From Balanoglossus misakiensis (lineage: Eukaryota > Animalia > Hemichordata): 64,000 nt of DNA. Shown one piece after another: positions 4,067 through 43,458 of this stretch; the stretch's first letter is position 1, and the number at the start of each line of letters is the position of its first letter. A program made the position numbers and the translations under genes. Under the pieces are notes generated by a model, which saw only the letters and a program-made list of their open reading frames with translations, had not been told where the DNA came from and searched no databases. The DNA lies in assembly GCA_040954595.2 (NCBI GenBank), contig CM082583.2, positions 838,542 to 902,541 on the forward strand, written 5' to 3'.

Positions 4067-4098
4067 ATATATATATAGTAGAGTGTGTGTTTTGACAT

Positions 4099-4161
4099 AG
4101 GCGGTGTATTACTGTTCAGTTTCGTGTAAGCGGGGCCTACACTCGTCAGATACTGATGCCT
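4099..4161 (-). ncRNA. Second copy of the hammerhead ribozyme, in the inverted arm
   Basis: Reverse complement of 7348-7410. Confidence 0.85.
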
Positions 4162-4220
4162 GAATGATGGTGAAGGGTGTGGACAACAGGGAATTGGGTA
4201 GGGTGGATATGCAAATGGGC

Positions 4221-5059: not shown

Positions 5060-5126
5060 GCAACGAACTCCCAAATCGTATTACTACGCTCCTTTGTGTC
5101 GAGCACTCTTCGCAAATACCACTGTC

Positions 5127-7288: not shown

Positions 7289-7347
7289 GCCCATTTGCTT
7301 ATCCACCCTACCCAATTCCCTGTTGTCCACACCCTTCACCATCATTC

Positions 7348-7410
7348 AGGCATCAGTATCTGACGAGTGTAGGCCCCGCTTACACGAAACTGAACAGTAA
7401 TACACCGCCT
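7348..7410 (+). ncRNA. Minimal type I hammerhead ribozyme in the Penelope 3' region
   Basis: Core CTGACGA, stem II GTGTAGG/CTTACAC, GAAA, short stem III CTG-AA-CAG, GTA cleavage triplet, stem I GTAT/ATAC extended by AGGC/GCCT. Confidence 0.85.
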
Positions 7411-7512
7411 ATGTCAAAACAGCCTTAGTTCCCTTGCACACTCTACTATCAAGCTCTGGATTTACACCATCGAGCACTCTGCCAGCAGTACTTGCAACGA
7501 ACTCCCAAATCG

Positions 7513-7515
<3 letters not shown>

Positions 7516-7546
<31 letters not shown>
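7516..7546. repeat. (TA)n microsatellite at the Penelope 3' junction
   Basis: About 15 TA units; a shorter (TA)n lies at 4065-4077 on the other side. Confidence 0.95.
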
Positions 7547-7549
<3 letters not shown>

Positions 7550-7865
7550 ATACATGCCTAAATATAGGGATAAACTGTGTTAACGCCATCTTGAAAATTT
7601 GCAGTGCATTATCGGTCAATTGAGTCCCAGTTGGGGGGGGGGGGGAGTAGCGTCTACAACCTATCCAATTTTCCAGCAGTTTTGTCAGATTTTCTTCAAG
7701 TAACGTTAGTAGTAGTAGTTACATGAAGAAAATCTGACTAAACCGCTGGAAATGGATAGGTTGTAGTGGTACTCCCCCCAACCGGAACTCAATTGACCCA
7801 TAATGCACTGCAAATTTTCAAGATGGCATTAACAGTTTATCCCTACATTTAGGCATGTATGACAT
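7545..7865. mobile_element. Foldback/MITE-like palindromic element (~320 bp)
   Basis: ATGTCATACATGCCTAAATATAGGGATAAACTG... is mirrored by ...CAGTTTATCCCTACATTTAGGCATGTATGACAT. The inversion continues almost to the centre. Confidence 0.85.
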
Positions 7866-7888: not shown

Positions 7889-8762
7889 ATGGGTATGATA
7901 AACTATCTCCATATGGATTTGCCATTCATGGTTGCATCGATGGGTAAGTGCTATCAACTTATCATCTATACAAACCTTTCTGAGGAATGCTGGAGACCCA
8001 TTGTAACACCATTGGTTTTTTGAGAATCACAATATTGATGAAAGCTAAGATTAATGAAGCACATTTAGTAACAATTCTGTGGAAATATGTTTATGCAATG
8101 AAATTTACTTATTCCTTTTTTAATTTGAAAATTAATAATAACTTTGTTTTCTATAGATTTTCGCGAAGGGTGTTGTGGTTGAAAGTTGGTGCATCAAACA
8201 ATGATCCAAGCAAAGTTGCTTCCTATTTCATAGACACAGTTGAGAAGCTGAAAGGTAATAGACACATTCACTTAAGGTTGTTAAACATATCATTTTGACA
8301 AAATTTGTTTTATTGACATTTCTGAACTGGGTAAAGGCGATAAATTTAGCCAACCACTAATCAATGACAATTATCCATTGCATGCTCATATTAGTCTTGT
8401 ACCCAATATTTCCTGTGGCAACATTGTAATGATCTTCACATATCCAGGCTGTGTTGAAAAACATTGAAACTACGTGTAGGCAGTAAAGCATTTGGAATGA
8501 AAATCTTTCTTAAAAATTAAATCTAGTGTGTACAATTTTTTTTTTTTTTTTTTTTTTTGGGGGGGGGGTTAACATTTTAACTGTAAGAGCTGCCAATGTC
8601 AATCCTAATTTGTTTGCAGGTTGCCCCAGGATCTTGCGAGCAGATCATGGCACAGAAACAGGAGTGATAATGACTGCTCAAGCCATGTTGAGGACAGATG
8701 GTGATGATGCTTTTGCTGACAACAGCTTTTGGTATGGTCCTTCAACTGCTAACCAGGTCAGT

Positions 8763-8798
<36 letters not shown>

Positions 8799-11700
8799 TT
8801 TTATTTACCCATTAATTAAAGGGTACATATGATAGGTAAAATACAAATGGTGGGTAAATATGGAGTCAGGAAATAGCCACAGCTAGTCTAGCCTGTACTC
8901 CTACAATATAGCTTGCTTGGTTACAGAAAAAAAAAGATAATGTTGAGGGAACGCTTGAAGCGTGATTCAAGTACGATCTCACTACAACAGTGTAAAGTTA
9001 TCCATTGCAAATGGTAATGGAAAAAAGAAAGGAACAACAATCACAAACAAACAAACAAAACAGCATCATACTACATCAAGAAAATTACAAATTCATTTGT
9101 ACTGGTTTAAGAGGTGTTGTTTAAATGTCCTACGAAATTGGCATAAAGTATTTGAAGACTTAATTTGTGGAGGAATATCGTTCCAGATTTTTGCTCCAGT
9201 ATGTGATATCGAGAACTGGCCTGAGTTTGTTTTGGCATGGAACGGGCGTAGATAGTGATGTAACCAAATTCTGGTATTATGCTCATGACTTGTTGTGTCA
9301 AAATAATCTGAAAGTGAATGTGGAGATTTCTGGTGATATAAATAATAAATGAAGGAACCTAGTAAATAACTGTGAAGCTTGGTAATATCCAAAATATTCA
9401 GTTGATTAAAGAGAGGAGAAGAATGGTCCATGTGTGATTTGAAAAGCATTATACGTACAATTGTTTTTTGGGCAACTTGGATACAACGTAACTTTGTGGG
9501 GTAAGTATTGCCCCAAACCTCAAGACCATATGTAACATGGGGGAGTATGAAGGCGTTGTAATACAAAATTCTGATATGGAGTGGTAAAATATTTCTAATC
9601 TTGTATAAAATTCCACAGTGCTTCCTAATGAGATTATTTATTTTGTTAATTTGATGTGACCATGACAGATGCTTATCCAATAAAACCCCAACAAATGGTA
9701 TCACATCAACCTCTTTGATTTCTTCATTCTGGATTTGCAATGACCCAAGAACATTAAGTTTTTTCTGCCGACCCCTAAAAATAATAAAGTGAGTCTTGGC
9801 CCTATTAATTGTTAGTTTGTTGGCATTGCACCATTGCTGAACATCATTTAAATAAGAGGATATATGAGTCAAGTTAATACTATCTGCACCTGAGAAGGAA
9901 TGGAAGAGATTGGAGTCGTCAGCAAATAAACGGAAATCAAAAAATGTAGAAGAATTTGGAAGGTCATTGATATAAATAAGGAAAAGGGTTGGGCCCAAAA
10001 CTGATCCCTGTGGGACTCCATTGTGGATCAAGGACTTTTCTGAAACATGACTGGTTAATGTGACATACTGTGAGCGGTCTGTGAGGTAGCTGTTAAACCA
10101 ATGCTGGCAGGGGCCCCTAAACCCGTAATGTTCAAGCTTGGACAATAAAGTGGCATGGTGAATGGTATCGAAAGCTTTGCTGAAGTCAATAAACACCCCC
10201 AGTGTGGAATTCCCCTTATCAATTTCTTTTAACAAGTGGTTAACTAAGTTAATCAAAGTGTGCTTGGTGCTATGGTTCTTTCTAAAGCCATACTGGTGCT
10301 TATATAATATATTATATTTATCAAGGTAAGTAATCACTTGTTTGTTTACCACTTTTTCTATCACTTTACTGAACATTGATAAAATGGCGATGGGTCTGTA
10401 GTTCCCAGCAATGTTCTGTTCTCCTTTCTTGAAGATAGGTTTAACCTTAGCGACTTTTAAGGAATTAGGGAAGACACCGGTACAGAAAGACATATTTATG
10501 ATGTGGGTCAAAGGTTGAGCAATAACATCAGCTGCATCAATTAGGAGTCTTGGAGGAATATTATCCCACCCACTGGCCTTTTTACTGTCAAGATGCACCA
10601 AAATCTCTTTTATCTCAGCAACCGTAACAGGATGGAGAAAAAAAGAGTTTGGCATAGGATCATTCATATAATTTTTAAAATCTTTTGTGGTTTTTGGAAT
10701 GTGTTTTGCCAGATTTTGACCCACATGTACAAAGAAGTCATTAAAACACTTAGCCATATCAGCTGGCTTATCTACCAACCTTTCAATCCCATTTACATTG
10801 ACCTTTAACTGATCTGGTGCTTTATCTAAAGTAGTGTTTTTACCAAGCAACTCATTTACAACATTCCACACTTTACCATTGTTGTTTACAGTGAATAAAT
10901 TAGCATAATACACCCTTTTGGCTTTTCTTAAAACACTTGTAAGAATATTTCTGTAGGTTGTGTAGCGAGCAACAGCACTTGGTTCATGTTGTGTGGTGAC
11001 AACTTTAGCATATAGTTTGCGTTTGGTGCGAATTGACTTCTTAATAGCTTTGGTAATCCAGGGATTTTTGTTACACTTGGCCTTAATAGTTTTAACCTCA
11101 AGTGGGGCATGATGGTCACACACCTGGCTGAACAAATTGCTGAAGGTGTCAAAAGCAGTGTTTACACAGCTATTGTTATGCATAACAACGTTCCAGTTAA
11201 CATTAATTAAATCAGAAATAAAACGAGCAGAGTTATAGCGCCTGAAATTCCTTGTACAAACTGACCGTACAAATGGCGTGTGGACATTGAAGTTGTTGAA
11301 AATAGAGAAAATAGGTAAGTGATCTGAAATATCAGCAATAATTGTACCAGCATCAATGTGACAAGAGCTAATATTGGAATAAATATGATCAATGGTCGAC
11401 TTGGAAGTACTTGTAATACGAGTTGGGGAGGAGATTAACTGTTCTAGATGAAGACATTGCATCCTTGGTATAAAATCCCGAGCACTTGAATCTGGACTTG
11501 ACACATCAATATTAAAGTCACCCATAAGAATACAATGTTTTTTATCCAGTTTCAAAGAACAAAGAACATTAAAAAGACTGTCTTCAAACTCTGTGACACT
11601 AGTTCCTGGTTTGCGATATAACACACCGACAACTATGCGATTCTTTAACCCGCATATTTCAAACCATAGTGATTCAGAATGAACCACATTAAAGTTTAAC

Positions 11701-14700
11701 AGTTTGTATTTAAGAGAACAATGAATATATGCCCCTACCCCGCCACCCCGACCGATGTTTCTGCTATTTAACTCAAAAGAGTAATTTGGCAAATTAAAAA
11801 AAGTTGGATTATTGATTTGCCAGGTTTCTGAAACACCAATAATGTGAAAAGGACTGGTGATACATTCATTATACAGGAGACGTACATCGTCTATACTATT
11901 ACAGAGAGATCTTGCATTAATATGAGATACTGAGAAAGAATGGCTGGATCTAGAGCTAAATTTATCATTAAATGTTGACGGTTCTAGTATATGATTTGTA
12001 ACTGTGAAAATGTCATCATCTATGTCATTTACTGAGTTTGGCATGAAGCAATATATGGGAAACCAAGAAAATGTCTACAAGATGGTTTATACAATCTTGG
12101 CAAGGTCCAGCTCATTCCTTATCACTAGTACAGGTGACTGCTCACTTTTCTTCACAAGAACTTCACCGTTCCGCGTCCACGCATACTTATAGCGTGCTGA
12201 TTAGCGCTTCACGTTCGTCATCTTAAAAAGTTTGCGTGCTTTTGGAGTTAGATTTTCATTTACGTAGATTTTGTTCCGATTGGCATATCCAATATCTCCA
12301 GTTGTAATGGTCGCTAGCTTCTTTTTGTTCCGGTGGATATAGTCGCGTTTCTTCCTGCTTAAGAATCGCACAATGATTGGTCTTGGGAAAGTAGGTGCAG
12401 CATTGTCACCTGTATGCTTTTGACCTAATCTGTGGGTAATCACAATGTCGTGGTCACTGATACCTGGATCGATCTTTTTAGCACTCTTGTTACGATTGCA
12501 TCTGTATTTTCTCCATCATCTGCACTTTCATGAATTCCATGAAGTTCAATGTTTTCACGTCTATTGTATGATTCATACTTTCCATAGATTTCTCGAGCTC
12601 TGTGATGCGAGTGAAAAGCTGTTCATTCGTTTCTTTGACTTCTTTATTTTCAAGCTCCAAAGTAGAAACTCGTCCACGTACTTCCTCTACAAGTCCGTTG
12701 AAGAACTCCAGTGACGAATTTATTGTGCTTTGGCTTTCTTTGAGCTCAGCAATACTGATCAATAGTGCCGGTATGTGATTTACATGTGAACAGATTTCAG
12801 CAAGCCGGTTTTCTATTGATTGTGGTGTGCCAGCTGGAGGTGTTGATTGGCAAGAGTCTGATGATCCAGATGGTGTTTGGTCTTTTCTTCTCGGCATCGT
12901 GAATGAGCACAGGTGTTCGATTACACAACGTGGGTTTTAAACAAAGGAGCAGAATTCCAGTACTATTTTGCATGCATAATGAGATCGACTGGAACTAACG
13001 GCAGGATTCTGTGTGCTGGCTTCGACTTGATAGATAAAAATCAAAACTCACTTTTGACAAAAAGTTACAGCAATCTTCCGCAAAAATCCGTTGCCAGCTA
13101 ATAGTCCACGCCTTCAAAAATCGACACATTGACCGGTGATGAAAACAAGTTCCAACTAAGGAGTGATTTTTGGCTCGTACCAAGAGACGATGTTGCTGAA
13201 CTTGTCGACCATGCGCAGCGCCCTCTATCCACATATGACAAATGACATCACAATTTTTCTTAGGAATACCTACGCTGTACCGTGTCATGAGATAAAAAGA
13301 CTGTTAATACTACCCATTTTTCCACTACCTTGTTAAGATGACTATATGCTTGAGGAGACAATCCTCAAACCTCATAGACTCCCCATCTTCCCTACTTCAG
13401 TCACCGATTCCATTGCTGCTGCATGCCTGAGCAAATTTTGTTCAAATTTGGTGCAGTTTTTTGTTTCACAATATAATCCAAAAAAGACACTTTTGGTATC
13501 GTGTTTCACATTTGTTTGTTCAGAGTGGTGACAGTAATTGTGTCAGACCATTGTTTTCATTGTGATCTCTTCTTACAGCGTATTGAACGATGGTGGGGTG
13601 TGTTAAGAAGTAAAAGTGCAGATTGGTGGATTGACCATTTTAAGGTAAAGTATCATTTGGCTTGTACAAATGTGTTCTGCAAAACAAAATCAACTCAAAC
13701 ACAAAGATGGTTGTATAAGTGACAAAATTTGTATTCTCATAGAATGTGCCACAGCCCAAGATGCAATGTCATTAGTGGATGCAGTTGTGTGTAGGAATGA
13801 GAAAAATAACCAGTATAGCTCAAGTCAGCTCATATCATGATGTTGAATTGTCCTGCAGAGTTTTTATACATGAGGACTAGGCTTTCCAAACATTTTTTTT
13901 CTTGGCCATGGCCTTGCAGGCAGTTTATACACAAGTACAAGACCACATTCACTGACACATTTTACTGTAGCATTACAGGAAATTCACCACTATCAATTTT
14001 TTATCCCCTAGGATTTGGTATCAATGGGTCATTTGCAGTTAGGTGACCCGGTCAACATGTGAGTTGATACACTTTATGTTTTGTTTCAAGTAATGAAAGA
14101 AATTCCATTATTCAATCTGTCAATGTTTGCACAGAGCAGAGAAGAAACAGACACAGACAGGATGGTAGAGACATAGACAGGAGATCAAATATTGCAGTTC
14201 GTTTGAAATCCGTAGATCTGCTGGAAATCATATTTTTAACTGGATGAATTTCCATAAACTTGTAACATTATGCTATTTGTTAAGTATGATAAAATGCACA
14301 TATTATTCCCAAGCATCTTGAAATCAATTTGCATTTTTTCTTTCAGAATGAGTATGCAGTTTTGTTATTTTTCTGTCATGCAAAGGGAACTGGATGAGGT
14401 AGTTGAGAGGTGGAACCACCACAGAATAAGGCGACAAAATAAAGGAGATTCTGTATCAGGCATTCCAGAAATTCTCTATACCTGTCCTGAGTTACTAGGT
14501 ACTTTTTTATTGCAACAAAATAAAGAAACCAACAAAGATTCATTAAAATTGCAGAAATGCTACCTAATCTGGACCCTGTGACTGAATGTAGATCACAAGT
14601 CATGTGGGTATTTCACTCATTAGGTCAACATAAGGCTTATCCATGAAGTAAATGACATGCAGTGTTTAAAGCATAAATCATGAACATTGGAAAGTTTCCT

Positions 14701-15383
14701 CAACAAAAATCTCAAGATTACATAACATCTGCAGAGAATGATAGAAAAATAACATTTCAATCACTTCATTGCTTAAGGTAAATAAAATAAAATAACTTAA
14801 TATACATCTGGCACCAAGAACAATAGATACTCCAATATAAACAAAAAAGAAAGATGGCTGCTCAGTGTGTACTGTGTTTCAGCTGATCGGTTATGGTTGA
14901 TCGTACCAGCGTTTTGAAAGCCAAATAATATGCAACACAAGAACTAACTGAGATGTAAGATGTACAATAATAATTTTATTATGAAAATACCACAAAGTAT
15001 ATATTTGGACATTAGCATAGTGCATCGCCCTCCGCTACGCATCAGGCGATACGTGGCGCTAATGTCCTTGAGCATACTTTGCAGTATTTTCGTAATACCC
15101 TCATAGTATTTAACCCATACATAAATTCTTATTTGAACAAACATATTTTGTTATTTCAGACCGCCCTAATTGTCGGAACTACATACATTCAGTCAACGCT
15201 GGCTCTCAAACTTTCTTGCTATGCAAGTCACAGTGTAACTTTAATAATGGTTGAAATGAAGATTTCGCAGTTGTGGCACGGAACATATGCCAAATGAATG
15301 GATGGAATCATGAACCCACTACAGCATTTGCAGCAAAAGAACTCTACTTGCACTTGACACCTTGCCTTGAAGAACTTTTCTAA
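7889..15383 (+). CDS. Multi-exon DDE 'integrase core' transposase of IS3/IS481 type (IS3EU-like); 5' exons not in window; in-frame TGA in last exon
   Basis: Exons with AG/GT borders and consistent phases: 7889-7943 (DGYDKLSPYGFAIHGCIDG), 8157-8254 (FSRRVLWLKVGASNNDP..), 8620-8756 (GCPRILRADHGTE..YGPSTANQ), 13579-13644 (RIERWWGVLR..), 14012-14058, 14347-14498 (QRELDEVVERWNHHRIR..GIPEILYTCPE), 15160-15383 (..AKELYLHL..). D, D and E catalytic motifs are present. Confidence 0.85.
9093..12044 (-). CDS. LINE ORF2: APE endonuclease + reverse transcriptase (983 aa, open)
   Basis: HINARSL, GVSETW, GGGVGAY, MGDFN, IDHI, SDHLP (endonuclease); NYRPIAIL, QYGFR, IDFSKAFDT, GVPQGSVLGP, LFADD (RT). Confidence 0.93.
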   Translation of the reverse strand: MPNSVNDIDDDIFTVTNHILEPSTFNDKFSSRSSHSFSVSHINARSLCNSIDDVRLLYNECITSPFHIIGVSETWQINNPTFFNLPNYSFELNSRNIGRGGGVGAYIHCSLKYKLLNFNVVHSESLWFEICGLKNRIVVGVLYRKPGTSVTEFEDSLFNVLCSLKLDKKHCILMGDFNIDVSSPDSSARDFIPRMQCLHLEQLISSPTRITSTSKSTIDHIYSNISSCHIDAGTIIADISDHLPIFSIFNNFNVHTPFVRSVCTRNFRRYNSARFISDLINVNWNVVMHNNSCVNTAFDTFSNLFSQVCDHHAPLEVKTIKAKCNKNPWITKAIKKSIRTKRKLYAKVVTTQHEPSAVARYTTYRNILTSVLRKAKRVYYANLFTVNNNGKVWNVVNELLGKNTTLDKAPDQLKVNVNGIERLVDKPADMAKCFNDFFVHVGQNLAKHIPKTTKDFKNYMNDPMPNSFFLHPVTVAEIKEILVHLDSKKASGWDNIPPRLLIDAADVIAQPLTHIINMSFCTGVFPNSLKVAKVKPIFKKGEQNIAGNYRPIAILSMFSKVIEKVVNKQVITYLDKYNILYKHQYGFRKNHSTKHTLINLVNHLLKEIDKGNSTLGVFIDFSKAFDTIHHATLLSKLEHYGFRGPCQHWFNSYLTDRSQYVTLTSHVSEKSLIHNGVPQGSVLGPTLFLIYINDLPNSSTFFDFRLFADDSNLFHSFSGADSINLTHISSYLNDVQQWCNANKLTINRAKTHFIIFRGRQKKLNVLGSLQIQNEEIKEVDVIPFVGVLLDKHLSWSHQINKINNLIRKHCGILYKIRNILPLHIRILYYNAFILPHVTYGLEVWGNTYPTKLRCIQVAQKTIVRIMLFKSHMDHSSPLFNQLNILDITKLHSYLLGSFIYYLYHQKSPHSLSDYFDTTSHEHNTRIWLHHYLRPFHAKTNSGQFSISHTGAKIWNDIPPQIKSSNTLCQFRRTFKQHLLNQYK
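12087..12897 (-). pseudogene. LINE ORF1 (coiled coil, RRM, C-terminal domain), disrupted
   Basis: Coiled coil in ORF 12490..12897; HRLG..PRPIIVRF..IYVNENLT in ORF 12201..12443; YKYAWTRNGEVLVKK after a premature TAA at 12201-12203; frameshift near 12565. Confidence 0.8.
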
Positions 15384-15424: not shown

Positions 15425-15621
15425 GAGGCCGTTCAGTTTTCATGGCTTGGGGCAAGTTTGTGTCATCTGTTTTCAAAAACAGGCAGACCCCCCCCCCCAT
15501 TCCCTTTACACGGGACCAAAAAATGATGACCCCCCTTTTGAATTTCCAAATTTAAGTGACACCCCCTTGATTTTGCCGACTCCCCCTACCTACCTCCCGC
15601 CGTAAAAACTGAATGGTCCCC
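15425..15621. mobile_element. MITE (~200 bp) between the two convergent stop codons
   Basis: Imperfect TIRs GAGGCCGTTCAGTTTTT / AAAAACTGAATGGTCCCC, with TA on both sides. Confidence 0.75.
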
Positions 15622-17099
15622 TAGTAAAAAAAAATGTTCACAAGTACAGTTCAAAACAGCCCACACAGAAGAACATCATCATAGTTTGTTAGGGTGTCAT
15701 CCAGGTCACCACTAATCTGTTGAACAAATAAAAAAGTGATTTCATGCATTAAAAAACATTGTTTATCATATTCATGTGTATGTACTGACATTTTGTGATG
15801 CGAAATAAAACTTGGTAATCAGAATAGCTGTACTATGTGAACATTTGGATTCTGTTTCACGAGACTGAAGAATGTTGTGCATTTTTGGACAACTCGATTT
15901 TCAGTATAAAACTGCTAAAAAAGACAGTTGATCAATCTCTCAAAATTGGCAAACACCGAAATATGCAAATATCATCAAAAAAATTTAAAATTATTAAATT
16001 ACCTCTTTCACTAGCATCATTTCTGGTAGATATTCTACGAAAAGGAAGTCAGCCTCAGCTGTGGCATGGTATTCATGCTGACACTGAAAATCAACACAGT
16101 TGGGAGGATCGAAACATTGCAGAAAAAATCTGCAAGGAAGATCTTCTGAATCAACTGTACCGCAAATCCAATCAAAGACATCCTGCAAAGCAAATAGATT
16201 CTTTTATGTTTACAATTATAATGCTAGAATATGATGATTAATCCAAACCTTGGTTTCTTTATTTTGGTATGACTGCAGTTACACTCAGAAATGCCTTACA
16301 TTGTAAGGCTGCAACGGACTGTATTTGAACAGTGAACATGAAACACACAATTTACACTTGATGGCCCATATCTTGACTTACTTTGAGTGTATCTAGGTCT
16401 CTGAATGGCCTTTCCAGGACCTCATCGTTCACCATGATGCAGATTTGTCTTTTCCTTTCGTTAATCAAGGGCAATCTTATATTTTCGGCTCTGGCCTGTG
16501 CTGCCTGTAAAGAAATAAACACATTGAGTGTCATAACCTGAGCAGACAATTCACTGACTAACCGGTTCCTAGGGAAGAGATTGCCTTGCCTAACGTGAAA
16601 TAGGTATGTGGATGAGAAAGTACAAAACAAACATTTAGTAGAATGCACCTCTGAGCTTTAAATTTTTAGACATTGGACCTAAAAATTAACAATTTATCAA
16701 AAACTATCCTATAAATGTAAAAATGAAGAATTTATCAAAAACTACAAAGACAATCAACACGTTTCAATCCAGTATTAACATCATTGCCCAAACTGTCACT
16801 TTGGTGTAGGAGTATAACCAATCCAGTCAAATGTATGACTCAGAATCAAAATTCGACTAAACTTACATCTTTCCTCTGCAATTTCCTTTGAGCTTGTTTC
16901 TCTCTTTCCTGTAACGTTAATATTGATACCATTTAATACCTTAGACTAATCAATATCCCCCAGGGGCGGCCTAAACATCACATGTGAAAGCCCCATTTGT
17001 TTAAGAGTCATTCCATAATCTTTCAACACCTTTGCAAATACCAGTCAGAGTTATTTTCCATCATATCTGCTCTGACTGTCCCCATATTTCCTCATGCAG

Positions 17100-17261
17100 C
17101 AGTAAAACCTGTCTAATCTTGAAACCTATCTATATTGAACACATGTTCCTGTCCCTTTGACATGGAACCACATGTTAAAAGAACCCCTATAAACCAGACA
17201 CCTTTGCAAATGGAATAATTTCTTCAGTCACTTTGGTGTTCAGTTTCGACAGGTTTTACTG
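17100..17261. mobile_element. Small Tc1/pogo-type MITE
   Basis: TIR CAGTAAAACCTGTC / GACAGGTTTTACTG, followed by TA on the right. Confidence 0.7.
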
Positions 17262-17371
17262 TAGCAGAATAGACATTTTGCCAATAAATACAATTGGTAT
17301 TGACTAGAAGTGCCTGATCATTCGAATATTTATTCGGAGAACCTGCTCCATCATTTATAGTAGTTAATTAA

Positions 17372-18104
17372 GGTGGCATTGCATGAAAAGTTGTGATTTT
17401 TGCCAAATTTTACTTTTTTACATAAATCGGTAGGCCTAACACTGACCCACAACCTGACTAATACGTCTTGGCGGAAATGGTGCATAATCACCCCAAAATA
17501 GCACTTTTCTGAATGAGTTCACAGCTTAAAAAATAGGTGTCAACAATGCAAATAGCCGTTTTTCTCAGTTTGCATTTTCGCTGCTCTTGACAACTTCGGA
17601 CTAAAATAGCTTCGCCCTGCGTTGGCCGAATTTGCTCAAATTTTGACAGGGAATTGTGTATGACCCATCCAACAAAACGCTAGTTTTGTTTGTCGATAAA
17701 GTGTCCCTGGCGGGAATAAACTCTGATTCAATACAACTCACCGTGAATTTGATCAAATTTTCTGAAAATCTAACTTTTAAACGCTGTTACTCCTCAATGG
17801 AAGCAGATAACGCAAAACAAAATTAGCGTTTTTTTGCACGTGTACTCTAGTTTTGAATGACATATTAAGATGCATGATGCATGGTCAACTGTTTTACCTA
17901 TTTTAAATTTCATGACATAATATCAAAAAATGGTTTTTTTCACCCAAAATCGCCACCATTTCCGGGGATCAATAATATTTGCAACTCAAACAAAAGTTCA
18001 AAATCTCAGCTTCCAGAATATATATGGTTTATGGGGGTTTTAACTTTTTCTTTGATGAGAAATAGGCCTCTGAAAAAGTCTCGACGGTTTCATGCAGTGC
18101 CACC
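17372..18104. mobile_element. Non-autonomous TTAA-targeting DNA transposon (Kolobok-like)
   Basis: TTAA-GGTGGCATTGCATGAAA ... TTTCATGCAGTGCCACC-TTAA: TIRs with GG..CC ends and a TTAA duplication. Confidence 0.85.
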
Positions 18105-18916
18105 TTAATCATGTCTAACCTGTTCTGAATTCAATGCCTGTTCAGCAGTACATTCTTTCATGGATTCCTCACATGAAGCTGCCACCTCCTCCACCACTGT
18201 TATGTCAACAGAATTTTCAACCGCAATCACTTCTACATCTTCATTGACACCATCACAGGACACAGGATCACAGGACACAGGATCACAGGACACTAACTTT
18301 TCATTGTCAGTACCCTATAACAGAAAATAAAAAAATGAAATATCTATCTGGCTGTAATTATGATTTTGTAAAATGTTGCTGTTTTGTGCTTAAACTATAT
18401 TTTTTGTTCCCCATAAATTTTGTTGAAATGTCAAGATTTCAATTCATCGCCAGTAGATACTGTATGCCACACTGTATTACAAACCATGACATCACTGGCA
18501 GACTAAATTTCACATGTTAAAATATTCATGCCATTATACCTTGACCATTTCTTGTTCTTGTTCAGGTTCCTCTTGCTGCTCGAACTCTTTGTCTTGCAGT
18601 TGCAGCTTCTTTTGAACAAAGGATGCTTTCAAAGAATGTTTTGCTGTGGAATACAAAAAAAAAATACACAATACAGAAATGCCCTGAAAATTGATAAGCA
18701 CATCAGCATAGCTCACATATGCATAAAGAAACTGTTAATTATTTACTACTGAGTTTTAGTCCATACTAAAATCATTTCTCAATGTTGACTATACAAAGAC
18801 CAGATGTTCTCGTAGGAGGATCCTTAAACCTTTGGCAATGAAACTACAAACCATAGTTCTAACCTGGGACTACACATAACAAAAGGACAGATTTACTCTG
18901 GAAAATAGGTCATTAA

Positions 18917-20242
18917 AGGGACAATGTCTCTCTCTTGCTGCCCCTTTTCCATTAATTATGTTTGATACAAGACACCGTTTATGTTATTATATGTGTGGAT
19001 ATATAGTGAATCAACGTTCAACCACACACACCTTCCATTCGGCTTGAAGACATGAGTGAAAAAAAATCGCCAAAATGAATAATATTCCTCTACCATTTTT
19101 TCATTTGGGGCGAGTTTTTATTCTCATATCATCATACAAGTGAAATGGAAGTTGTGTGTGGTCGAATGTTGATTCGCTGTATGTCTACATGTAAAAACAT
19201 AGCAACATAGCAATAAGCACATCTGCTCTGGATGCCAAGATATGGAAAAGTAGGTCAAAGGTCACCTGAGGTCATGCAAAATTTGGGCATAAAATTTTGA
19301 CCCTATACTGGTCCATGTTCAACAAAAACCAAACCTATAGCCCTATTGGTTAGCCTGGAATTAGGTATGCACATAATTAATGAGATATGCAAGTGTCACA
19401 GGTGACCCCCAATTTTGGCTTTTCAATTTTAGTCCCAACCCTCCAAACGCGAAGTCTCTACCTGCTCTGGATGCCAAGATATGATAAAGTAGGTCAAAGG
19501 TCACCTGAGGTCATGCAAAATTTGGGCAAGAAATTTTGACCTTATACTGGTCCATGTTCAATAAAAACCAAACCTATAGCCTTATTGGTTAGCCTGGAAT
19601 TAGGTATGCACATAATTAATGTGTTAAGCAGGTGTTACAGGTGAGCCCAAAAATTTGCCTTTTATTTTGGCCCCATTGTGCTCACTGACCAATAGACAGT
19701 CACTGTACAGGACTATTGCACAGACCAGAACTCCACAATAAGACGTGGACATAGCTTAACCATAGAGGTATAAGTAAAGGTATAAATTTAATAAAAAGAC
19801 TAAAAAATTCATAAAAAATAAAACATCCATGATATTAACTTAACACTTACAGGTCGATGTGAGGTTGACATAAGGTACATGCATACCAATTTTTAAAGCA
19901 ATCTGAGCAGTAGTTGTTGACTTTCAGAGTTTTGATAAATTTCACATTTTACTGGCTAATTTGCATATTTTTGGGCCTGGCAACTTCGTTTGGACAAACT
20001 CCCATCTACAGCCCTGCCTGCATCTGCACACCAAATATCAAGGTGATACGCGCAGCGGTTTTCAAGTTTTTGATGTGGACGGACATACAGACATACATAC
20101 ATACATCCATACAGACACAACCCATCCCATAAGGTCCCATGGTATATAGGCCTATACCAATGGGACCTAATAACACAAATAATATCTTGTATCAAACATA
20201 ATTAATGTAAAAAAGCAGCAAGAAGCAGAGAGAGACTTTGCC
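18917..20242. mobile_element. Old foldback element (TTAA-flanked) split by a nested insertion
   Basis: ATTAATTATGTTTGATACAAGA (18951) pairs with TCTTGTATCAAACATAATTAAT (to 20206). Internal palindrome at 18990-19195. TTAA at 18913 and 20243. Confidence 0.65.
19195..20170. mobile_element. Helentron-associated non-autonomous element (HINE/DINE-1/pearl-like organisation)
   Basis: Two ~239-bp core repeats (19223, 19462) containing GGTCAAAGGTCA, an (ACAT/ACAG)n microsatellite at ~20083-20115, and a terminal hairpin AGGTCCCA..TGGGACCT at 20132-20168. Confidence 0.6.
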
Positions 20243-22691
20243 TTAAGGGGTCACTGATAGACAAGGCTGAAACTTTTTTAGTGCAACCTTTGAGTCAGAT
20301 AATCAAGTTAATCAAGTATAATGCACCTGTGCACTTACACAATCAAAGTGGTGGAACTTGGAGGTAGCATTGTTGGAATAAAAGTGCCCATACTTGGGCC
20401 ATTGTCACATGACCAGACAGGTACCACTATCCTGCAATTTTGCAAATACATGTCTAAAATGGCATTTGTTGAATTTGTTATGTTCATGCCAGGCTTTGCA
20501 TAATTGCATGATAGCATGAATATACCAACCATAAAGTCCACCATGCCAATGATACCCACTGGATAATGGGGTCTGCCCAGTCATGTGACAATGACAGAAA
20601 TGGCGCTTTTCTTCCAACAAAACAAGTTCTGCCACTTCTATTTTTGTCTGTTTTTGTTTAAAAAGCAGCAAGTGAATAATAAAAAACTACCATGACTTTT
20701 TAACCTGGATAATCCAACACAAAACGGGCACAAAGAAAAAAAACAACCTTTCAATTTATCCAGTTAAATACTTGACACAACTTGTGACAATGTAAATAGA
20801 CATGATTTACTCACTCTGCCCAACTGCAAACATGAAGACTGGCAACTTGTCTGTCTTCGCCTTCATACTTTTGTATTTTGCCTTCAGGTCTTTTAATTGG
20901 AAATTCATTGGGTCCTTCATCCTTATGAACACTCCTATGTCATTCATCTCATAAGGTACAAAATCCACGTCGATGAAGTGTGCCGATACACTCTGGGCCC
21001 AGTGCATGGCATTTGAGCCACTGTCCACGGTAATGGCCACCTGACTTTTTCTGCCGACAGCTGATGGTAGTACTGCCCCCATTTTCTTTAGAACTCCTTT
21101 ACTGTCTTTTGTCAGTGGTGTAACATTTAACACCTGAATGAAAATGTTACAAAATAGGGTAAACATCAAAATTTTAATAAATGTATGTAAAATGGCATGA
21201 ATATAAACTTAAATTTTCATAAAATCAGGAAATAACTAACAAGGAAAAGACTTGTACATTGCATGGATATGAAGAAAACATGTGTTATAACTCCTAGCAA
21301 TTACGTATAATGCTTAAAGGCTGAACTGTACATAACCTTGGTCTATACTTTCCTGTGTATGTATACTCTACACTTCTATTCTATTCCCTAAAGCATGATG
21401 AAATTACCAGTGTCTAGAATGTTTACCTTGTCTGTAAATTAGATGATGAGAAATTAAATACATGTACTGGGCAATTCATCATGCTATTGGGTGTAGAATG
21501 GAAAGAAAACAAAAGTGTAGACAAAATACAAAAAGGTTAGTGGTGGGGGGGGGGACTAAAACATGCCATTGGCAGCTCACGAGTCAGTCAATGGCCAGTC
21601 AGTGTTTGCCTGTTGATCTGTGTGTGAGCATGGACACTTTCATCTGTATTTCCAAACACATAAACACCTAGCAGTGAGACAGGAACATCCACTGAAAAGG
21701 AAATCCTGTCACCCTCAAATTGGTTTCCTTTCCATGTGTTTGGATTTTTTTCATTGATGAAACGCCGCGCCACAATGGCATTATTTGGAACCACATTTCT
21801 TGTGATTACATCCACATAACCAGGAACAGGAAAATTGCATCCAGGATGTCGAACTGCTTTTAATATCTGGAAGATGGGGAAGAAATGGCTCAAAACAAAA
21901 GGGGGCATCCATATCATTGCCATTGACACCCTGAAGTTTCCTTTCCACCCATAAAAACAATGCATTCAAAAGTGTGTCTTCCTTTACCGAAAGCGTCTGA
22001 CGCTGAATTATTTTTACAACTATGCTTTCAGGAAGTTGAAGAAAATCTTCCAAAACTTGCTCAGAATTAAACAGTTTAACACCATTCTGATCAATTATTG
22101 ACAGACAGTGTTCAAAAGTACTATCTAACTGGTATTTCTGACAAAATACAAGGTCTCTAATACTGCGGGAAGTTACAATGTTGGAAATTAAAAATGATTC
22201 ACATTTCTCTTTTAAAGAATTTATCATGTAAAAGTTACATATCTCCACATAATCTTCAACATTTTCACTTGTAATATTTAACTTTTCAAAATAAAAATCA
22301 TCAATGACATTTTGCATGAGTAAGGGATCAAAGTCAGAACAATCAATGGTTTTGTCGTTGGCCCATTCCGAATGCAAACGGGCGGCAAACACATCCGAAA
22401 AAAGACACAACACCAATGAATGGGCCCTTCTCGTCTGACCATCTCTGAAGCGAAGGATGACATCATTTGCTACAGTGTCTTGGTTTCTATATGAAGTTTG
22501 CAATTTTTGGGCCAGTAACATGATGTCTGCAAGTGTAACAAAGGTATAACACCAGTATTGTATCAGTTTAGTTGTATATCGACACAAACTGAATAGCTCA
22601 GGGCCTAACTGTATCCTAATTATATTGGAAAATATCTGAATTGTTAGATTGTTCATTTTATCAGTTTATTACCATTTTGGTAGGAAATTCT

Positions 22692-24753
22692 AATTGTTCT
22701 CAAAAATTGCACAGACAAGTATTACATATACAACAGGCTTATTGCATCAAAACTAGAAAAACAAATAAACATGGAAACAAATTGGGTTATATTTGTCCCA
22801 GACAGAAATCTATGAACGGTTATGAAATCTGGCGACTTCTTGATGAAGTTTCTTTTAATTTCTGTAGTAAACTTAACTGTCAAAAGTTGTTTATTTTATC
22901 ATACCTTATTCAAATGTGAAATATCATAGTCGAAATTGGGGCATTATAGTGAAAAAATGTAAAATTACAGTTTATAAATTGGTTGGTAAATCGGAATAAA
23001 TCATGTAAATTTACATGAATGTCATTAGAAAGAAAAGTCAAAGTTCAAATAAAGAGTTCAATCAAATTCATGGAGATTCCATGACAGTGTATATCATCTG
23101 TTACATTTCTTTTTGTTCTTTTCTAAATTATGTTGAACTCTCTTTTTTTCAGCTTTTCAACATATTCCAGTGCATTATTATGACACAGTTGCGTTTTGAC
23201 TGTTGCTGAAAAAGGTCTGCAGACTTGTTCCTAAATTTACCACTTTAGGTGCAAACATTATACATGAAAACAAGAACACCACATCTAATTGAAATGCAGG
23301 TGTCCATAGAAACCAACCAATAATGTAATCAACCCATGTTTTTTCAGCTGTGTCACTATCAGTTTCACTATCTGTAGGCTCATAAAACAAACAGCTATGG
23401 ACTCCCAACAGGAACCCAACTTGGGTTAACATTTGAACAGTAAAAAATGACCTATACCTCCCTGAACTGACTATTTTCTGTTCCCAAACTAAATTCCTGA
23501 ACAAAATTTCTTGTCCGTTTACAAATTGCAGCCACTTTTCCAAGGAGTACCAGTTAGATTTCCACACAGCCAGCCAGCGAACTCTGACCCTCACCCAAAA
23601 TGGACATTCAGTTAACTTCGTGCGAGCGCCATATTAGCATATCAATAGCAATCATTTCAAGTTGAGAACTTTCTCTGTGGATGATCGGCTGAAATACGTA
23701 AACTAACCAGAGAATTTGTTCACGAAAAGAGTTTAGGAAACAGTAAATTAAAAAAGATAACACAGACGAGACAGTGGATTCGCAGGAAACTAGCGGAAAA
23801 GACTAGCAAACGAACATAACTGTTCTTACCTTCACTACAACTTCGCTCCACAAGTTCTGTTTGCAGTGGTGAATTGTTCTCAAAAATTGCACAGACAAGT
23901 ATTACATATACAACAGGCTTATCGCATCAATACTAGAAAAACAAAAAACATGGAAACAAATTGGGTTATATTTGTCCCAGACAGGAATCTATGAACGGTT
24001 ATGAAATCTGGCGACTTCTATGACTTGATGAAGTTTCTTTTAATTTAATTTCTGTAGTAAACTTAACTGTCAAAATTTGTTTATTTTATCATACCTTATT
24101 CAAGTGTGAAATATCATAGTCGAAATTGGGGCAAACATTATACATGAAAACAAGAACATCACATCTAATTGAAATGCAGGTGTCCATAGAAACCAACCAA
24201 TAATGTGATCAACCCATGTTTTTTTCAGCTGTGTCACTATCAGTTTCACTATCTGTAGGCTCATAAAACAAACAGCTATGGACTCCCAACAGGAACCCAA
24301 CTTGGGTTAACATTTGAACAGTAAAAAATGACCTATACCTCCCTGAACTGACTATTTTCTGTTCCCAAAGTAAATTCCTGAACAAAATTTTTTGTCGGTT
24401 TACAAATTGCAGCCACTTTTCCAAGGAGTACCAGTAAGATTTCCACACAGCCAGCCAGCGAACTCTGACCCTCACCCAAAATGGACATTCAGTTAACTTC
24501 GTGCGAGCGCCATATTAGCATATCAATAGCAATCATTTCAAGTTGAGAACTTTCTCTGTGGATGATCGGCTGAAATACGTAAACTAACCAGAGAATTTTT
24601 CACGGAAAGAGTTTAGGAAACAGTTATTTAAAAAAAGATAACACAGACGAGACAGTGAATTCGCAGGAAACTAGCGGAAAAGACTTGACAAACGAACATA
24701 ACTTTTCTTACCTTCACTACAACTTCGCTCCACAAGTTCTGTTTGCAGTGGTG
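22692..24753. repeat. Tandem duplication (22692-23871 and 23872-24753) of the 5' region of the BTB gene
   Basis: Both copies start AATTGTTCTCAAAAATTGC and end GCAGTGGTG. Copy 1 has ~300 bp extra (~22943-23250). Each copy has a minus-strand AAG|GTAAG donor (23829, 24711). Confidence 0.9.
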
Positions 24754-24776
24754 ACTGCGCATGCTCAGAAAATCAG

Positions 24777-25082
24777 AGAAAACGCCGATGCGAGAAAACT
24801 CTTTAGCTGAAACGCCAATGCGCATGTGTAGAATGCCGGCGCGACAAAACTCTCCAGAAACGCCGATGCGAGAAAACTCTTTAGCTGAAACGCCAATGCG
24901 CATGTGTAGAATGCCGGTGCGACAAAACTCTCCAGAAACGCCGATGCGAGAAAACTCTTTAGCTGAAACGCCAATGCGCATGTGTAGAATGCCGGTGCGA
25001 GAAAACTCTCCAGAAACGCCGATGCGAGAAAACTCTAGCTGAAACGCCAATGCGACAACTCTGTAGAAACGCCGATGCGAGA
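24777..25082. repeat. 78-bp tandem repeats built from GAAACGCC(G/A)ATGCG submotifs; putative subterminal repeats
   Basis: About 3.5 near-perfect units, decaying into shorter motif copies towards 25201. Confidence 0.9.
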
Positions 25083-28000
25083 ACTCATCAAATCACCGGT
25101 TGTGATTTTGTCGGCGCCGGTAGAATGAGTAAAGGTGTCGGCAAAAATTTGGTTGTTACCGGCATTTTAGATTACGGCGTCGGCACCCAATGTGCGTCAT
25201 ATTTTCAGCATATGCGTTCCTATCATTTGTCTATGGACTTTACCCATGTATTGAGAGAAGTTGTCGGGGGTCCCCAACGGCTTTCCATAGTCTGTCATGG
25301 TGTGCCGGGGTTTTAGTCGAGCCAGGCCGTAGGAGATCTGACTTGATCATCGTGGTCAATGTACGCGTGTTTCCGCTCTAAAGTGCCGGGGCTTCAGCTA
25401 AACCAGGCCGTAGGAAATCCGACGTAATCATCGTTGATAACTTACGCCAGTCTGTGTCATATAGAGCCGGTGCACCAGCCGAGTCACGCCGTAGGAAATC
25501 TGACTTGATCAACGTGGTCAATGTACGCCTGTTTCTGCTCTAGAGCGCCGGGGCTTCAGCTGAGCCAGGCCGTAGGAAACCCGACGTGATTACCGTTGTT
25601 AACTTACGCCAGTCTGTGTCCTATATATAGTGCCGGGGCATCAGCCGTGTCAGGCCGAAGGAAATGTGAGTAGATCAACGTGGTCTCTGTACGCGTGTTT
25701 CTGCTCTAGAGTGCCGGGGCTTTATCCAAGCCATGCCGTAGAAAATCTGACTTGATCACCGTTGCTAACGTACGATAGTGTCTGTCATATTGTGACGGAG
25801 ATTTAGCCGAGCCAGGCCGTAGAAAAATCGACTTGTTCAACGTTACCAGTGTGCAACTGTTTCTGCTCTAAAGTCTCAGGGTTTTAGCCGACTTATGCTG
25901 TAGGAAATCTGAGTTGATGAACGGGAATTCAATGTTAGAAAACCCGTGTGGAAAGTATCTCTACCCGTTTGAAACTAAGAAAAGAATTAATTCTTATTTA
26001 TTTTGTAAAAAAGACAATTTTTCGAAAAAAATTCGAAAATGGTAATTTTGTCTTGGGTGATTCAAATTATACCGCCTTTTCTGGAATTTGCAGCACTTTT
26101 TACAAGAGAACGACACTTCATGCTCCATAATATTTCCGAAAATGAAGAAAAGAGTTAATTTTTTATGATTTTTTTAAAAATTTACCATTTTTGTCAAAAT
26201 ATGGCCAAAATGGCTATTATTTCTTGAATTCCGTCAATATCTCTGCATTTTTGGAGTGGTCGAAAGTTTTAACATACAATCAACATGTCATATATGATCA
26301 GGGCACCAAATTCGAAGATAAAAGGTTTTTTAATTTTTTTTTTCTAAAAATGACATTTTCAAGGAAAATTTTGTAAAACGCAATTTTGTCTTCAGTGAGC
26401 CAAATTAGACGGTCTTTTGTGGAATTTGTATCGATATATACATACGAAGAGCATTCTATACTCCATCAGATTTCCGAAAATGTAGAAAACAGGTATTTTT
26501 TGTAATTTTCAAAAAATTACCATTTTGACCAAATTGTGGCTAAAATTGTTATTTTCGTGTTGAATGCCGCCAGTGTCACTGCTTTTAAAAGTCATAAAAA
26601 CTTTTAACATACAAGCAATTGTTTATATATGATCAGGTCACCGAATTAAAAAAATAAAGAATGTTTTGCCTAAAAATGACCTTTTTGGTGCAAAAACGCA
26701 ATTTTGTATTAAATCAGCTCATTCAGAGTGCATTTTTTATAATCAGCACCATTTTTACATAAAATGGAAATTTCATACATCATCAGATATCCAAATATGA
26801 AAAAATGATTTAGATTTTAGATGATTGTCCAAAATTAGCTGATATCTAATAAATGTAGTATTGAACCGTTCTGTCCCCCCCCCCCCCTACATTATATGCG
26901 GTACGCCGATGTAAGCTTACCCGGCAGTACTGCAGGCCGTGCCCCCAACTAACGTCGGTGTTTGAAACGCCCTGGTTAAATTCGGGCTTTCTCTATAAAT
27001 TGACAGGCAATAATGCAGTCCTACCCGAACAAATGTCGAGTGTTGACCCGCTGTGACTTTCCCTCTTCGGTTTGCCCGACTTAGCTAACGTCTTTGTACT
27101 AGAGTGTCGGGTCTTTTGCAGAGCCAGGCCGAAGGAAATCCGACTTGATCACCGTTGCTAACGAACGCTAGTGTCTGTCATGGTGTGCCGGGGTTTTAGT
27201 CGAGCCAGGCCGTAGGAAATCTGACTTGATCAACGTGGTCAATGTACGCCTGTTTCTGCTCTAGAGTGCCGGGGCTTCAGCTGAGCCAGGCCGTAGGAAA
27301 CCCGACGTGATTACCGTTGTTAACTTACGCCAGTCTGTGTCATATATATAGTGCCGGGGCATCAGCCGTGCCAGGCCGAAGGAAATGTGAGTAGATTAAC
27401 ATGGTCTCTGTACGCGTGTTTCTGCTCTAGAGTGCCAGGGTTTTAGCCAAGCCAAGCCGTAGGAAATCTGACTTGATCAACGTTGCTAACGAACGCTAGT
27501 GTCTGTCATAGTGTGCCGGGGTTTTAGTCGAGCCAAGCCGTAGGAGATCAGACTTGATCAACGTGGTCTCTGTACGCGTGTTTCTGCTCTAGAGTGCCGG
27601 GGCTTCAGCTGAGCCAGGCCGTAGGAAACCCGACGTGATTACCGTTGTTAACTTACGCCAGTCTGTGTCCTATATATAGTGCCGGGGCATCAGCCGTGCC
27701 AGGCCGAAGGAAATGTGAGTAGATCAACGTGGTCTCTGTACGCGTGTTTCTGCTCTAGAGTGCCAGGGCTTTAGCCAAGCCATGCCGTAGGAAATCTCAC
27801 TTGATCACCGTTGCTAACGTACGCTAGTGTCTGTCATATTGTGACGGAGATTTAGCCGAGCCAGGCCGTAGAAAAATCGACTTGTTCAACGTTTCCAGTG
27901 TGCAACTGTTTCTGCTCTAGAGTGTCAGGGTTTTAGCCGACTTATGCTGTAGGAAATCTGAGTTGATGAACGGGAAGTCAATGTTAGGAAACCCGTGTGG

Positions 28001-31000: not shown

Positions 31001-31622
31001 GCCCCCCCCCCCCCCCCCCCCAACTAACGTCGGTGTTTGAAACGCCCTGGTTAAATTCGGGCTTTCTCTATAAATTGACAGGCAATAATGCAGTCCTACC
31101 CGAACAAATGTCGAGTGTTGACCCGCTGTGACTTCCCCTCTTCGGTTTGCCCGACTTAGCCAACGTCTTTGTACTAGAGTGTCGGGTCTTTTGCAGAGCC
31201 AGGCCGAAGGAAATCCGACTTGATCACCGTTGCTAACGAACGCTAGTGTCTGTCATGGTGTGCCGGGGTTTTAGTCGAGCCAGGCCGTAGGAGATCTGAC
31301 TTGATCATCGTGGTCAATGTACGCGTGTTTCCGCTCTAAAGTGCCGGGGCTTCAGCTAAACCAGGCCGTAGGAAATCCGACGTAATCACCGTTGATAACT
31401 TACGCCAGTCTGGATGGAGGGCGCTAGAGTCAGCCATCTACGGAAGCAGATTTCTAGCACGCTCAGAGTTTTCATCGTTTTTTCACGTGAAATCGGTGAA
31501 TTTTGTGGCGAAACTGTAGGTATATGCTTTTGGATAGATACTTGCAGCTAACTCGAGAGCAAAGAAGCATTTTGATTCTCAGAAGAAAGACATTTTGCTA
31601 GTTTTCGTGGTCTCGAGCAAGC

Positions 31623-42900: not shown

Positions 42901-43458
42901 AAACTTAACAAATGGTACACATTGCTGGAGGTACCAAACCAGACTACAAAAGAAAGTGAAACGGTCTGGAAGAACATACACGCAATAACTAAGGAAACAA
43001 AGTTGCGGGAATTTCAATGGAAACTTTTACACAGGTTGTTGCCATGTAATAAGTATTTGTTTTATTGGAATAAGAGCAGCAGTGTGGATTGTGAACTTAG
43101 TAAGATACCAGAGTCTCTTGAGCACAAGTACGTGCGTTGTACTATAGCCACATCACTTTGGGCAAAAATCGAGTGCATAATTCGGCAACTTTTTTGTAAA
43201 GATTTTGTTTTACAAAGCGCTCATATAATTTTCAATTGCATTAGAAGTGTTATGCTTTCGAAATCTGAAGAAAATATTGTAAATTTATTGATTTTAGTTT
43301 GCAAATGGAGTATACATAAATACTGGCTAAGTGAAACCAGAGCCCCTTTAATGGTGCTAGTAAAATACGAATTCATATTGAGATACAAGGTATACAAGGA
43401 AATATGCAATAATTCAGAAAGTGCAAGAATTTTTGAAGCTATTATATCTATGATGTGA
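39903..43458 (+). pseudogene. Tx1 ORF2, copy 2 (same disruptions)
   Basis: ORFs 39903..40868 and 40999..43458 translate identically to copy 1. Confidence 0.9.

What the first reader, a model, noticed from the sequence alone, without database searches (positions are those of the whole stretch)
15651..22521. Unusual architecture: BTB-BACK-PHR-like fused to coiled-coil + UBX-like domain
Seen: exons in compatible phase join a BTB/BACK/PHR-like N-terminus (resembling BTBD1/2/3/6) to an acidic linker, a charged helix (EQALNSEQ-EREKQAQRKLQRKD-AAQARAE) and ICIMVNDEVLERPFRDLDTLK-DVFDWI. The last part resembles the UBX pattern (..LERRF..DTL.DV.D(F/W)V). Established: BTB-BACK proteins are Cullin-3 substrate adaptors, and UBX domains bind p97/Cdc48. 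Inference: one protein could couple ubiquitylation to segregase extraction, for example to dismantle transpososomes or counter silencing. I know of no described protein with this combination. The UBX call is by eye only.
Basis: partly seen in the sequence, partly recalled or inferred. Interest (0 to 1): 0.72.

Follow-up and report, generated by a model that had tools for sequence, protein, structure and literature searches.

The report
Transposon's UBX-like gene beside broken BTB
A decayed cut-and-paste transposon, likely from an acorn worm, carries a broken BTB adaptor gene next to a spliced gene ending in a predicted UBX-like fold; these are likely two cargo genes brought together by a deletion rather than one fused protein, and intact copies would likely use them to turn the host's protein-disposal machinery against its silencing proteins.

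Summary
Partly confirmed. Seven minus-strand exons (21133 to 15651) splice into one open 342-codon frame. A Ptychodera flava protein (XP_070548833.1) matches them end to end and across the 20815->18643 junction; a partial Saccoglossus protein matches from exon 18643 on. The C-terminal domain is UBX-like by weak, concordant tests on the homologue, but lacks the R...FPR p97-binding signature; a conserved Cys3-His insert sits there. The fusion to BTB is not supported. The BTB-BACK frame shifts near 21870, PHR stops after about a third, and the Ptychodera homologue starts with a 47-residue charged helix that has no BTB and no match in the window. An open 520-residue fusion is still possible through one weak donor inside BACK. 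Both genes lie in an IS3EU transposon: matching DDE motifs, a CCATA end at 25289, and a premature stop in the transposase. The scan noted an oyster IS3EU with separate UBX-like and BTB-BACK-PHR genes before (e1-8622937, unreviewed). No RNA or genome data were available.

The parts
25230..25289 (-). Right terminus of the IS3EU element (reads TATGG... inwards); abuts satellite DNA, predicted target duplication GTCTGT at 25290-25295
   Evidence: 11 of 12 window matches of the flanking satellite word are preceded by satellite sequence, this one by CCATA; chance of CCRTA at a given place 0.0018; left end not in the window
24780..25083 (.). Subterminal 78-bp tandem repeat, 3.6 copies
24712..24762 (-). 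Likely first exon (donor at 24711); holds an ATG giving 17 codons in phase 0; may be untranslated
   Evidence: inferred from donor sequence
22692..24754 (.). Tandem duplication of about 880 bp with the first exon and intron start (second donor at 23829), 94-97% identical
21781..22521 (-). BTB-BACK reading frame, intronless, acceptor at 22526, runs out of frame near 21870 and stops at 21783
21588..21866 (-). First third of a PHR domain in a shifted frame (match 21764-21615), stop at 21590
20815..21133 (-). Exon for a conserved ~105-residue domain of undetermined fold
   Evidence: 55-56% identical to P0001 residues 45-153; fold inconclusive
18540..18643 (-). Exon: helix continuing the upstream domain, then acidic linker
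   Evidence: start aligns to P0001 and to the first residues of P0004
18120..18314 (-). Exon: acidic linker with a SIM-like word (EDVEVI)
   Evidence: SIM pattern recalled, not tested
16867..16908 (-). Exon: basic helix, first half of K-x5-[AT]A-x2-R-h (VIM-like)
16382..16504 (-). Exon: end of helix and first strands of the UBX-like domain
   Evidence: 50% over 42 residues to P0001; Pfam UBX 14-50 of 82 on P0001
16003..16182 (-). Exon: rest of the UBX-like domain with C-x5-C-x4-C-x-H insert
   Evidence: 47% over 66 residues to P0001; motif in 3 of 3 sequences
15651..15716 (-). Last exon: acidic tail with T-N-[FY]-D-[DE]-V and stop
   Evidence: 42% over 26 residues, E 0.009; motif in 3 of 3
7889..15383 (+). 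3' part of an IS3EU transposase in seven exons (7889-7943, 8157-8254, 8620-8756, 13579-13644, 14012-14058, 14347-14498, 15160-15383), tail to tail with the cargo gene; in-frame TGA at 15252; 5' exons not in the window
   Evidence: splice model; same motifs in Repbase IS3EU alignment; rva_4 E 0.002, below cut-off

Best explanation
The stretch lies inside a decayed IS3EU DNA transposon and likely holds two cargo genes in tandem, a frameshifted and truncated BTB-BACK-PHR gene and a spliced gene ending in a predicted UBX-like domain, which an internal deletion likely pushed together. Shown: the exons, the lesions, the transposase motifs, the element end, and hemichordate homologues of the second gene. 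Inferred: the deletion took about two thirds of PHR, the end of the BTB gene and the first coding exon(s) of the second gene. Inferred for intact copies: the BTB protein is a Cullin-3 adaptor that ubiquitylates a host silencing factor (or the spent transposase), and the second protein binds SUMO- or ubiquitin-marked chromatin proteins through its acidic SIM-like linker and calls in p97 through the VIM-like helix and a non-canonical UBX-like domain, so tagging and extraction are coupled in trans by two proteins, not one.
For: P0001 (Ptychodera flava, 432 aa, not labelled partial) aligns with the 3' exon chain from its residue 43 to its end (37% over 395 columns, E 1e-81) while the first 174 residues of the candidate fusion have no meaningful match. 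Its first 47 residues are a charged helix with no match in the window's cargo region and no BTB family hit. BTB frame and PHR frame differ by one base, with stops at 21783 and 21590. Only 481 bases separate the PHR match from acceptor 21133, and none of 20 further minus-strand frames scanned between 21805 and 18537 hit PHR. BACK similarity runs on to residue 197, past the only simple in-phase donor at residue 178. The element is decayed elsewhere too: TGA at 15252 in the transposase, retroelement and hairpin insertions in introns, a duplicated first exon. An HMMER search of 1.84 billion representatives with exon 21133-20816 gave 3 hits, one real (P0001) and two repeat proteins. Lead only: an unreviewed note describes an oyster IS3EU with a separate BTB-BACK-PHR gene and a UBX-like gene.
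Against: No transcript, no second copy and no genomic context for P0001 or P0004 could be read, so the two-gene state is not seen in this lineage, and it is not shown that the homologues sit in transposons. P0001 is an automatic model and could lack 5' exons. One GT-AG intron (21987 to 21134) gives an open 520-residue BTB-to-UBX frame, and its donor scores about as well as one accepted donor of the gene (0.4 against -0.3). The oyster and acorn-worm genes were not shown to be homologous. No binding of Cullin-3, SUMO or p97 was tested.
Confidence: 0.6

Rival explanations
1. The UBX-like gene is whole and starts at the upstream first exon (ATG 24762, 17 codons, phase 0), which would splice straight to 21133; the BTB gene is a nested or alternative exon in its first intron, sharing the promoter.
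For: The exon ends in a strong donor and is in phase with acceptor 21133; no deletion of a first exon is then needed; the 3' exons have no lesion.
Against: The 17 codons do not match the 47-residue N-terminus of P0001; the duplicate exon at 23830-23872 lacks the ATG; PHR is still truncated, so DNA was lost anyway.
Confidence: 0.15
2. The ancestral element had one long gene, BTB-BACK-PHR, helix, middle domain, linker, UBX-like; this copy lost its middle, and P0001 is a 5'-truncated model of the same gene. The protein would tag and extract substrates in cis.
For: Same strand, one visible promoter and first exon for both parts, only 481 bases between them. The searches for longer homologues were insensitive: one search missed even P0001.
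Against: P0001 starts with Met and is not marked partial; no BTB-bearing homologue among representatives or among 237-756-residue proteins (2 hits of 4656 candidates); the BTB part is intronless while the other part has six introns.
Confidence: 0.12
3. A new fusion: after the deletion the cryptic donor at 21987 joins BTB plus most of BACK to the intact 3' exons, giving a working 520-residue Cullin-3 adaptor with a UBX-like tail.
For: Open frame. BTB plus the 3-box at the start of BACK is what binds Cullin-3 in Btbd6 (bioRxiv 10.1101/575910, passages), and that part is kept.
Against: The donor is weak and competes with a strong acceptor at 21866 and stronger donors at 21712, 21580 and 21426 that lead to stops or need the micro-exon; the transposase of this copy has a premature stop.
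Confidence: 0.1

Closest known systems
IS3EU/GingerRoot DNA transposons (Repbase; PMC10045372, PMC12730594, PMC6839031, PMC11934779; passages read, plus passages of the PMC10045372 supplement)
   Same: Transposase words DGYDKL, GCIDG.SR, R.DHGTE and NQRIERWW as in IS3EU-1_DR and relatives; end of the TAYGG..CCRTA type; second gene in opposite orientation as for the fungal alpha-kinase cargo; the family is reported from acorn worm.
   Different: Cargo here is BTB-BACK-PHR plus a UBX-like gene, which the passages read do not mention; this copy is broken and its left end is outside the window.
BTB-BACK-PHR Cullin-3 adaptors BTBD1/2/3/6 (bioRxiv 10.1101/575910, passages)
   Same: BTB, BACK and the start of PHR in that order.
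   Different: Intronless, inside a transposon, frameshifted after BACK position 75 of 103, PHR cut at 51 of 151.
UBX-domain p97 cofactors such as FAF1, UBXD7, p47 (PMC5389986, passages)
   Same: C-terminal beta-grasp domain after a charged helix; nearest Atlas clusters are UBX.
   Different: No R...FPR signature, no UBA found; a Cys3-His insert in the place of the loop; a VIM-like helix with Lys for the first Arg; an acidic tail.
p97-KBTBD7 pathway (PMC8121430, passages)
   Same: A BTB-BACK Cullin-3 adaptor works together with UBX adaptors and p97 as separate proteins, the arrangement proposed here.
   Different: Host genes acting on a membrane protein in ERAD; Kelch rather than PHR; not carried by a transposon.
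Oyster IS3EU with UBX-like and BTB-BACK-PHR genes (scan note e1-8622937, unreviewed)
   Same: Same superfamily and same two kinds of cargo.
   Different: Described as two genes, with zinc ribbon and a ubiquitin-like domain at the front; homology to this gene not tested.

Membership tests
IS3EU/GingerRoot | DDE transposase of the IS3EU type | tested here: met
   Spliced model shows the three catalytic words as in the Repbase alignment; Pfam rva_4 E 0.002 on one exon, below cut-off; no tree built
IS3EU/GingerRoot | TA..TA (TAYGG..CCRTA) termini | tested here: met
   Right end CCATA at 25289 at the exact satellite junction; left end not seen
IS3EU/GingerRoot | Terminal inverted repeats and 6-bp target duplication | not testable with these tools
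   No second copy of the end in the window; no genome held
BTB-BACK-PHR (BTBD1/2/3/6) | BTB and BACK domains | tested here: met
   Both above Pfam cut-off; 27 PDB sequences at E<=0.001
BTB-BACK-PHR (BTBD1/2/3/6) | Complete PHR domain in frame | tested here: not met
   Positions 2-51 of 151 only, other frame, stop at 21590
BTB-BACK-PHR (BTBD1/2/3/6) | Binds Cullin-3 | not tested
UBX domain | Beta-grasp fold nearest to UBX | tested here: inconclusive
   On homologue P0001: Pfam UBX E 0.013, 16.1 bits against cut-off 21; Atlas features best 0.84 (lead only), 10 of 10 best named hits one family or clan; Atlas model TM 0.54-0.62, aligned part UBX in 7 of 10 rows, all under the tool's naming bar. 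Leaning yes. My AlphaFold model was too poor to add
UBX domain | R...FPR p97-binding signature | tested here: not met
   No [FY]P[RKP] in 3 of 3 sequences; C-x5-C-x4-C-x-H in that region in 3 of 3; signature from PMC5389986
VIM (p97-interacting motif) | R-x5-AA-x2-R | tested here: not met
   0 of 3 match; the relaxed K-x5-[AT]A-x2-R-h, a pattern I widened after seeing the alignment, matches 3 of 3 at the same place
Single BTB-BACK-PHR-UBX fusion protein | One open, conserved frame joining both parts | tested here: inconclusive
   Open only through a donor inside BACK or a micro-exon; homologue lacks BTB; no RNA

The most novel reading that the evidence does not exclude
IS3EU elements of acorn worms encode a single protein that joins a Cullin-3 adaptor (BTB-BACK) to a zinc-loop UBX-like domain and a VIM-like helix, either ancestrally or as a fresh fusion through the 21987 donor, so that one transposon protein tags a host silencing factor with ubiquitin and hands it to p97.
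Probability: 0.2. Interest if true: 0.72.

Novelty: new variant of a known kind. Interest (0 to 1): 0.4.

Why it matters
The fusion that made the finding striking is probably a side effect of decay. What remains is still of use: a transposon carrying a UBX-like gene and a Cullin-3 adaptor gene, a pairing the scan has noted once before in an oyster. If intact elements in two phyla keep this pair, animal DNA transposons would have recruited the ubiquitin-p97 pathway as a counter-silencing or transpososome-removal kit, which pull-downs could test directly. The domain itself, a UBX-like fold with a conserved Cys3-His insert instead of the FPR loop and kept in three hemichordate sequences, may be a new way of docking on p97 or a UBX fold with a new partner. 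Eight literature searches (listings only) showed no title or abstract start on a transposon-borne UBX protein or a BTB-UBX fusion; Repbase reports are not in the library.

Full report
Setting. The window is repeat-rich animal DNA: a retroelement array at 1-7546, a LINE at about 9093-13300, an 81-bp satellite from 25290 to the end, and two copies of another LINE inside it. No genome and no RNA run were available. The only real homologues found come from the acorn worms Ptychodera flava and Saccoglossus kowalevskii, so the source is likely a hemichordate; earlier notes on this genome say the same (unreviewed).

The 3' exons are one real gene. Exons 21133-20815, 18643-18540, 18314-18120, 16908-16867, 16504-16382, 16182-16003 and 15716-15651 have canonical ends and give 342 codons and a stop. 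An HMMER search of 1.84 billion representatives with the first of them found P0001 (E 2e-26, 56%), plus two unrelated repeat proteins. P0001 is XP_070548833.1, 432 residues. By tblastn it hits four of the seven exons in order: 55% over 110, 50% over 42, 47% over 66 and 42% over 26 residues; the linker exons are poorly conserved. P0004 (XP_077866879.1, partial) starts at the equivalent of exon 18643 and shares the C-terminal domain. Over the last 145 columns 50 are invariant in all three sequences.

The last domain is UBX-like but not canonical. On P0001, Pfam UBX scores E 0.013, below its cut-off, over profile positions 14-50; P0004 and the single window exons gave no UBX hit. In the ESM Atlas, residues 325-432 of P0001 have UBX clusters as nearest by features (0.84, a lead only by the tool's own scale) and by predicted structure (TM 0.54-0.62; aligned part UBX in 7 of 10 rows, one FERM protein and two without a family in the rest; all under the naming bar). 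My own models were too poor to add anything. UBX domains bind p97 through an R...FPR motif in a loop between two strands (PMC5389986, passages). No such word is present in any of the three sequences; all three have C-x5-C-x4-C-x-H in that region, a possible zinc site (zinc binding inferred). The helix before the domain has K-x5-[AT]A-x2-R-hydrophobic in all three, close to but not matching the VIM consensus R-x5-AA-x2-R. The linkers hold acidic-flanked hydrophobic words like SIMs, and the tails share T-N-[FY]-D-[DE]-V, like an ATG8-binding word (both patterns recalled, untested). The fold of the middle domain stays open.

The BTB part is broken and its link to the rest is weak. From ATG 22521 the frame gives BTB and BACK above Pfam cut-offs and stops at 21783. 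The PHR start lies in a frame one base off, covers positions 2-51 of 151, and stops at 21590. No other piece of PHR was found in 20 further minus-strand frames down to 18537. From the end of the PHR match to acceptor 21133 there are 481 bases, AT-rich and partly a hairpin. P0001 has 47 residues before the point where exon 21133 begins; they form a charged helix, hit no BTB family, and match nothing in this region. Enumeration gave 41 open splice paths from 22521 to 21133 under lenient thresholds; I printed the 21 whose first exon reaches 21990 or further, and all use weak donors, the 5-base micro-exon or both.

Both genes are transposon cargo. On the plus strand seven exons from 7889 to 15383 give the 3' part of a transposase with DGYDKL (first D split by the intron), GCIDGFSR, RADHGTE and NQRIERWW, as in IS3EU proteins of the PMC10045372 supplement (passages). 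It ends 268 bases from the stop of the UBX-like gene, tail to tail, and has an in-frame TGA at 15252. At 25289 unique sequence ends in CCATA exactly where the satellite resumes; the 11 other matches of the flanking word are preceded by satellite. IS3EU ends are TA..TA, in fungi TAYGG..CCRTA, with 6-bp duplications, and fungal families carry a kinase gene opposite to the transposase (PMC10045372, PMC12730594, passages). The left end lies outside the window. Retroelements and hairpin elements sit in the introns and the first exon is duplicated, so this is an old, damaged copy.

Reading. Most likely (0.6) two cargo genes, BTB-BACK-PHR then the UBX-like gene, were brought together by a deletion that removed most of PHR and the first coding exon of the second gene. 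An unreviewed note on an oyster IS3EU describes just these two kinds of gene as separate; it moved my reading, and I could test only the acorn-worm side. In intact elements the BTB protein would act as a Cullin-3 adaptor, as Btbd6 does through BTB and the 3-box (bioRxiv 10.1101/575910, passages), and the second protein would bring in p97, much as KBTBD7 works with UBX adaptors and p97 as separate host proteins (PMC8121430, passages). The target would be a silencing factor or the spent transposase. All of this paragraph's function is inference. Rivals: a nested BTB exon with a shared first exon (0.15), an ancestral fusion with a truncated P0001 model (0.12), a working new fusion (0.1).

Limits. 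The two-gene state was not seen directly in any acorn worm; the homologues' surroundings could not be read; the searches for fused homologues were insensitive; a one-base shift could be an assembly error, though the loss of most of PHR could not. Supplements of the bioRxiv preprint were not consulted and do not bear on the claims; Repbase entries for acorn-worm IS3EU families, which may already list such cargo, are not in the library.

Novelty and score. Eight paper searches (listings only, apart from the seven papers read in passages) showed nothing on transposon-borne UBX proteins or BTB-UBX fusions. The element is a new variant of a known superfamily, seen before by this scan in another animal. 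The headline fusion has about a one-in-five chance. Interest 0.4.

Noticed in passing
window 1-7546: Retroelement array: 274-bp and 452-bp tandem units (1-4066), a 972-bp inverted duplication (4088-5059 with 6450-7421, 99.7%) and a frameshifted RT plus nuclease frame (5031-7288) that looks Penelope-like (label recalled; no Pfam hit). It sits in what is likely an intron of the IS3EU transposase.
   Followed up: partly
window 9093-12936 (-): LINE with a 993-codon endonuclease-RT frame without stops and a coiled-coil ORF1 piece, antisense in a transposase intron.
   Followed up: no
window 25290-64000: 81-bp satellite in a higher-order unit of about 1.9-2.1 kb; the IS3EU end is inserted in it. An IS3EU-like repeat is reported at putative centromeres of Hydractinia (PMC11934779, passages).
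   Followed up: partly
window 31602-36349 and 38711-43458 (+): Two copies, 7109 bases apart, of a LINE with zinc-knuckle ORF1 and endonuclease-RT ORF2, nearly identical in translation and both split at the same place (33759/33863), so likely duplicated with the satellite after breaking.
   Followed up: no
window 22692-24754: Tandem duplication of about 880 bp that starts just inside the first exon; the second copy has about 300 extra bases.
   Followed up: partly
window 7545-7865, 14977-15097, 15429-15616, 17367-18109, 18987-19196, 20400-20593, 21374-21503: Small inverted-repeat elements in introns and between the two convergent genes; 17367-18109 has 22-bp arms, 95% complementary.
   Followed up: no
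P0004 residues about 48-145: The Saccoglossus homologue has about ten 10-residue repeats in its linker that AlphaFold builds as a beta-solenoid at low confidence; the window gene has a short 15-bp repeat at 18252-18293 in the same linker.
   Followed up: no
window 15654-15716 (-): Tail word T-N-[FY]-D-[DE]-V after acidic residues, kept in all three homologues, resembles an ATG8-interacting motif (pattern recalled).
   Followed up: no
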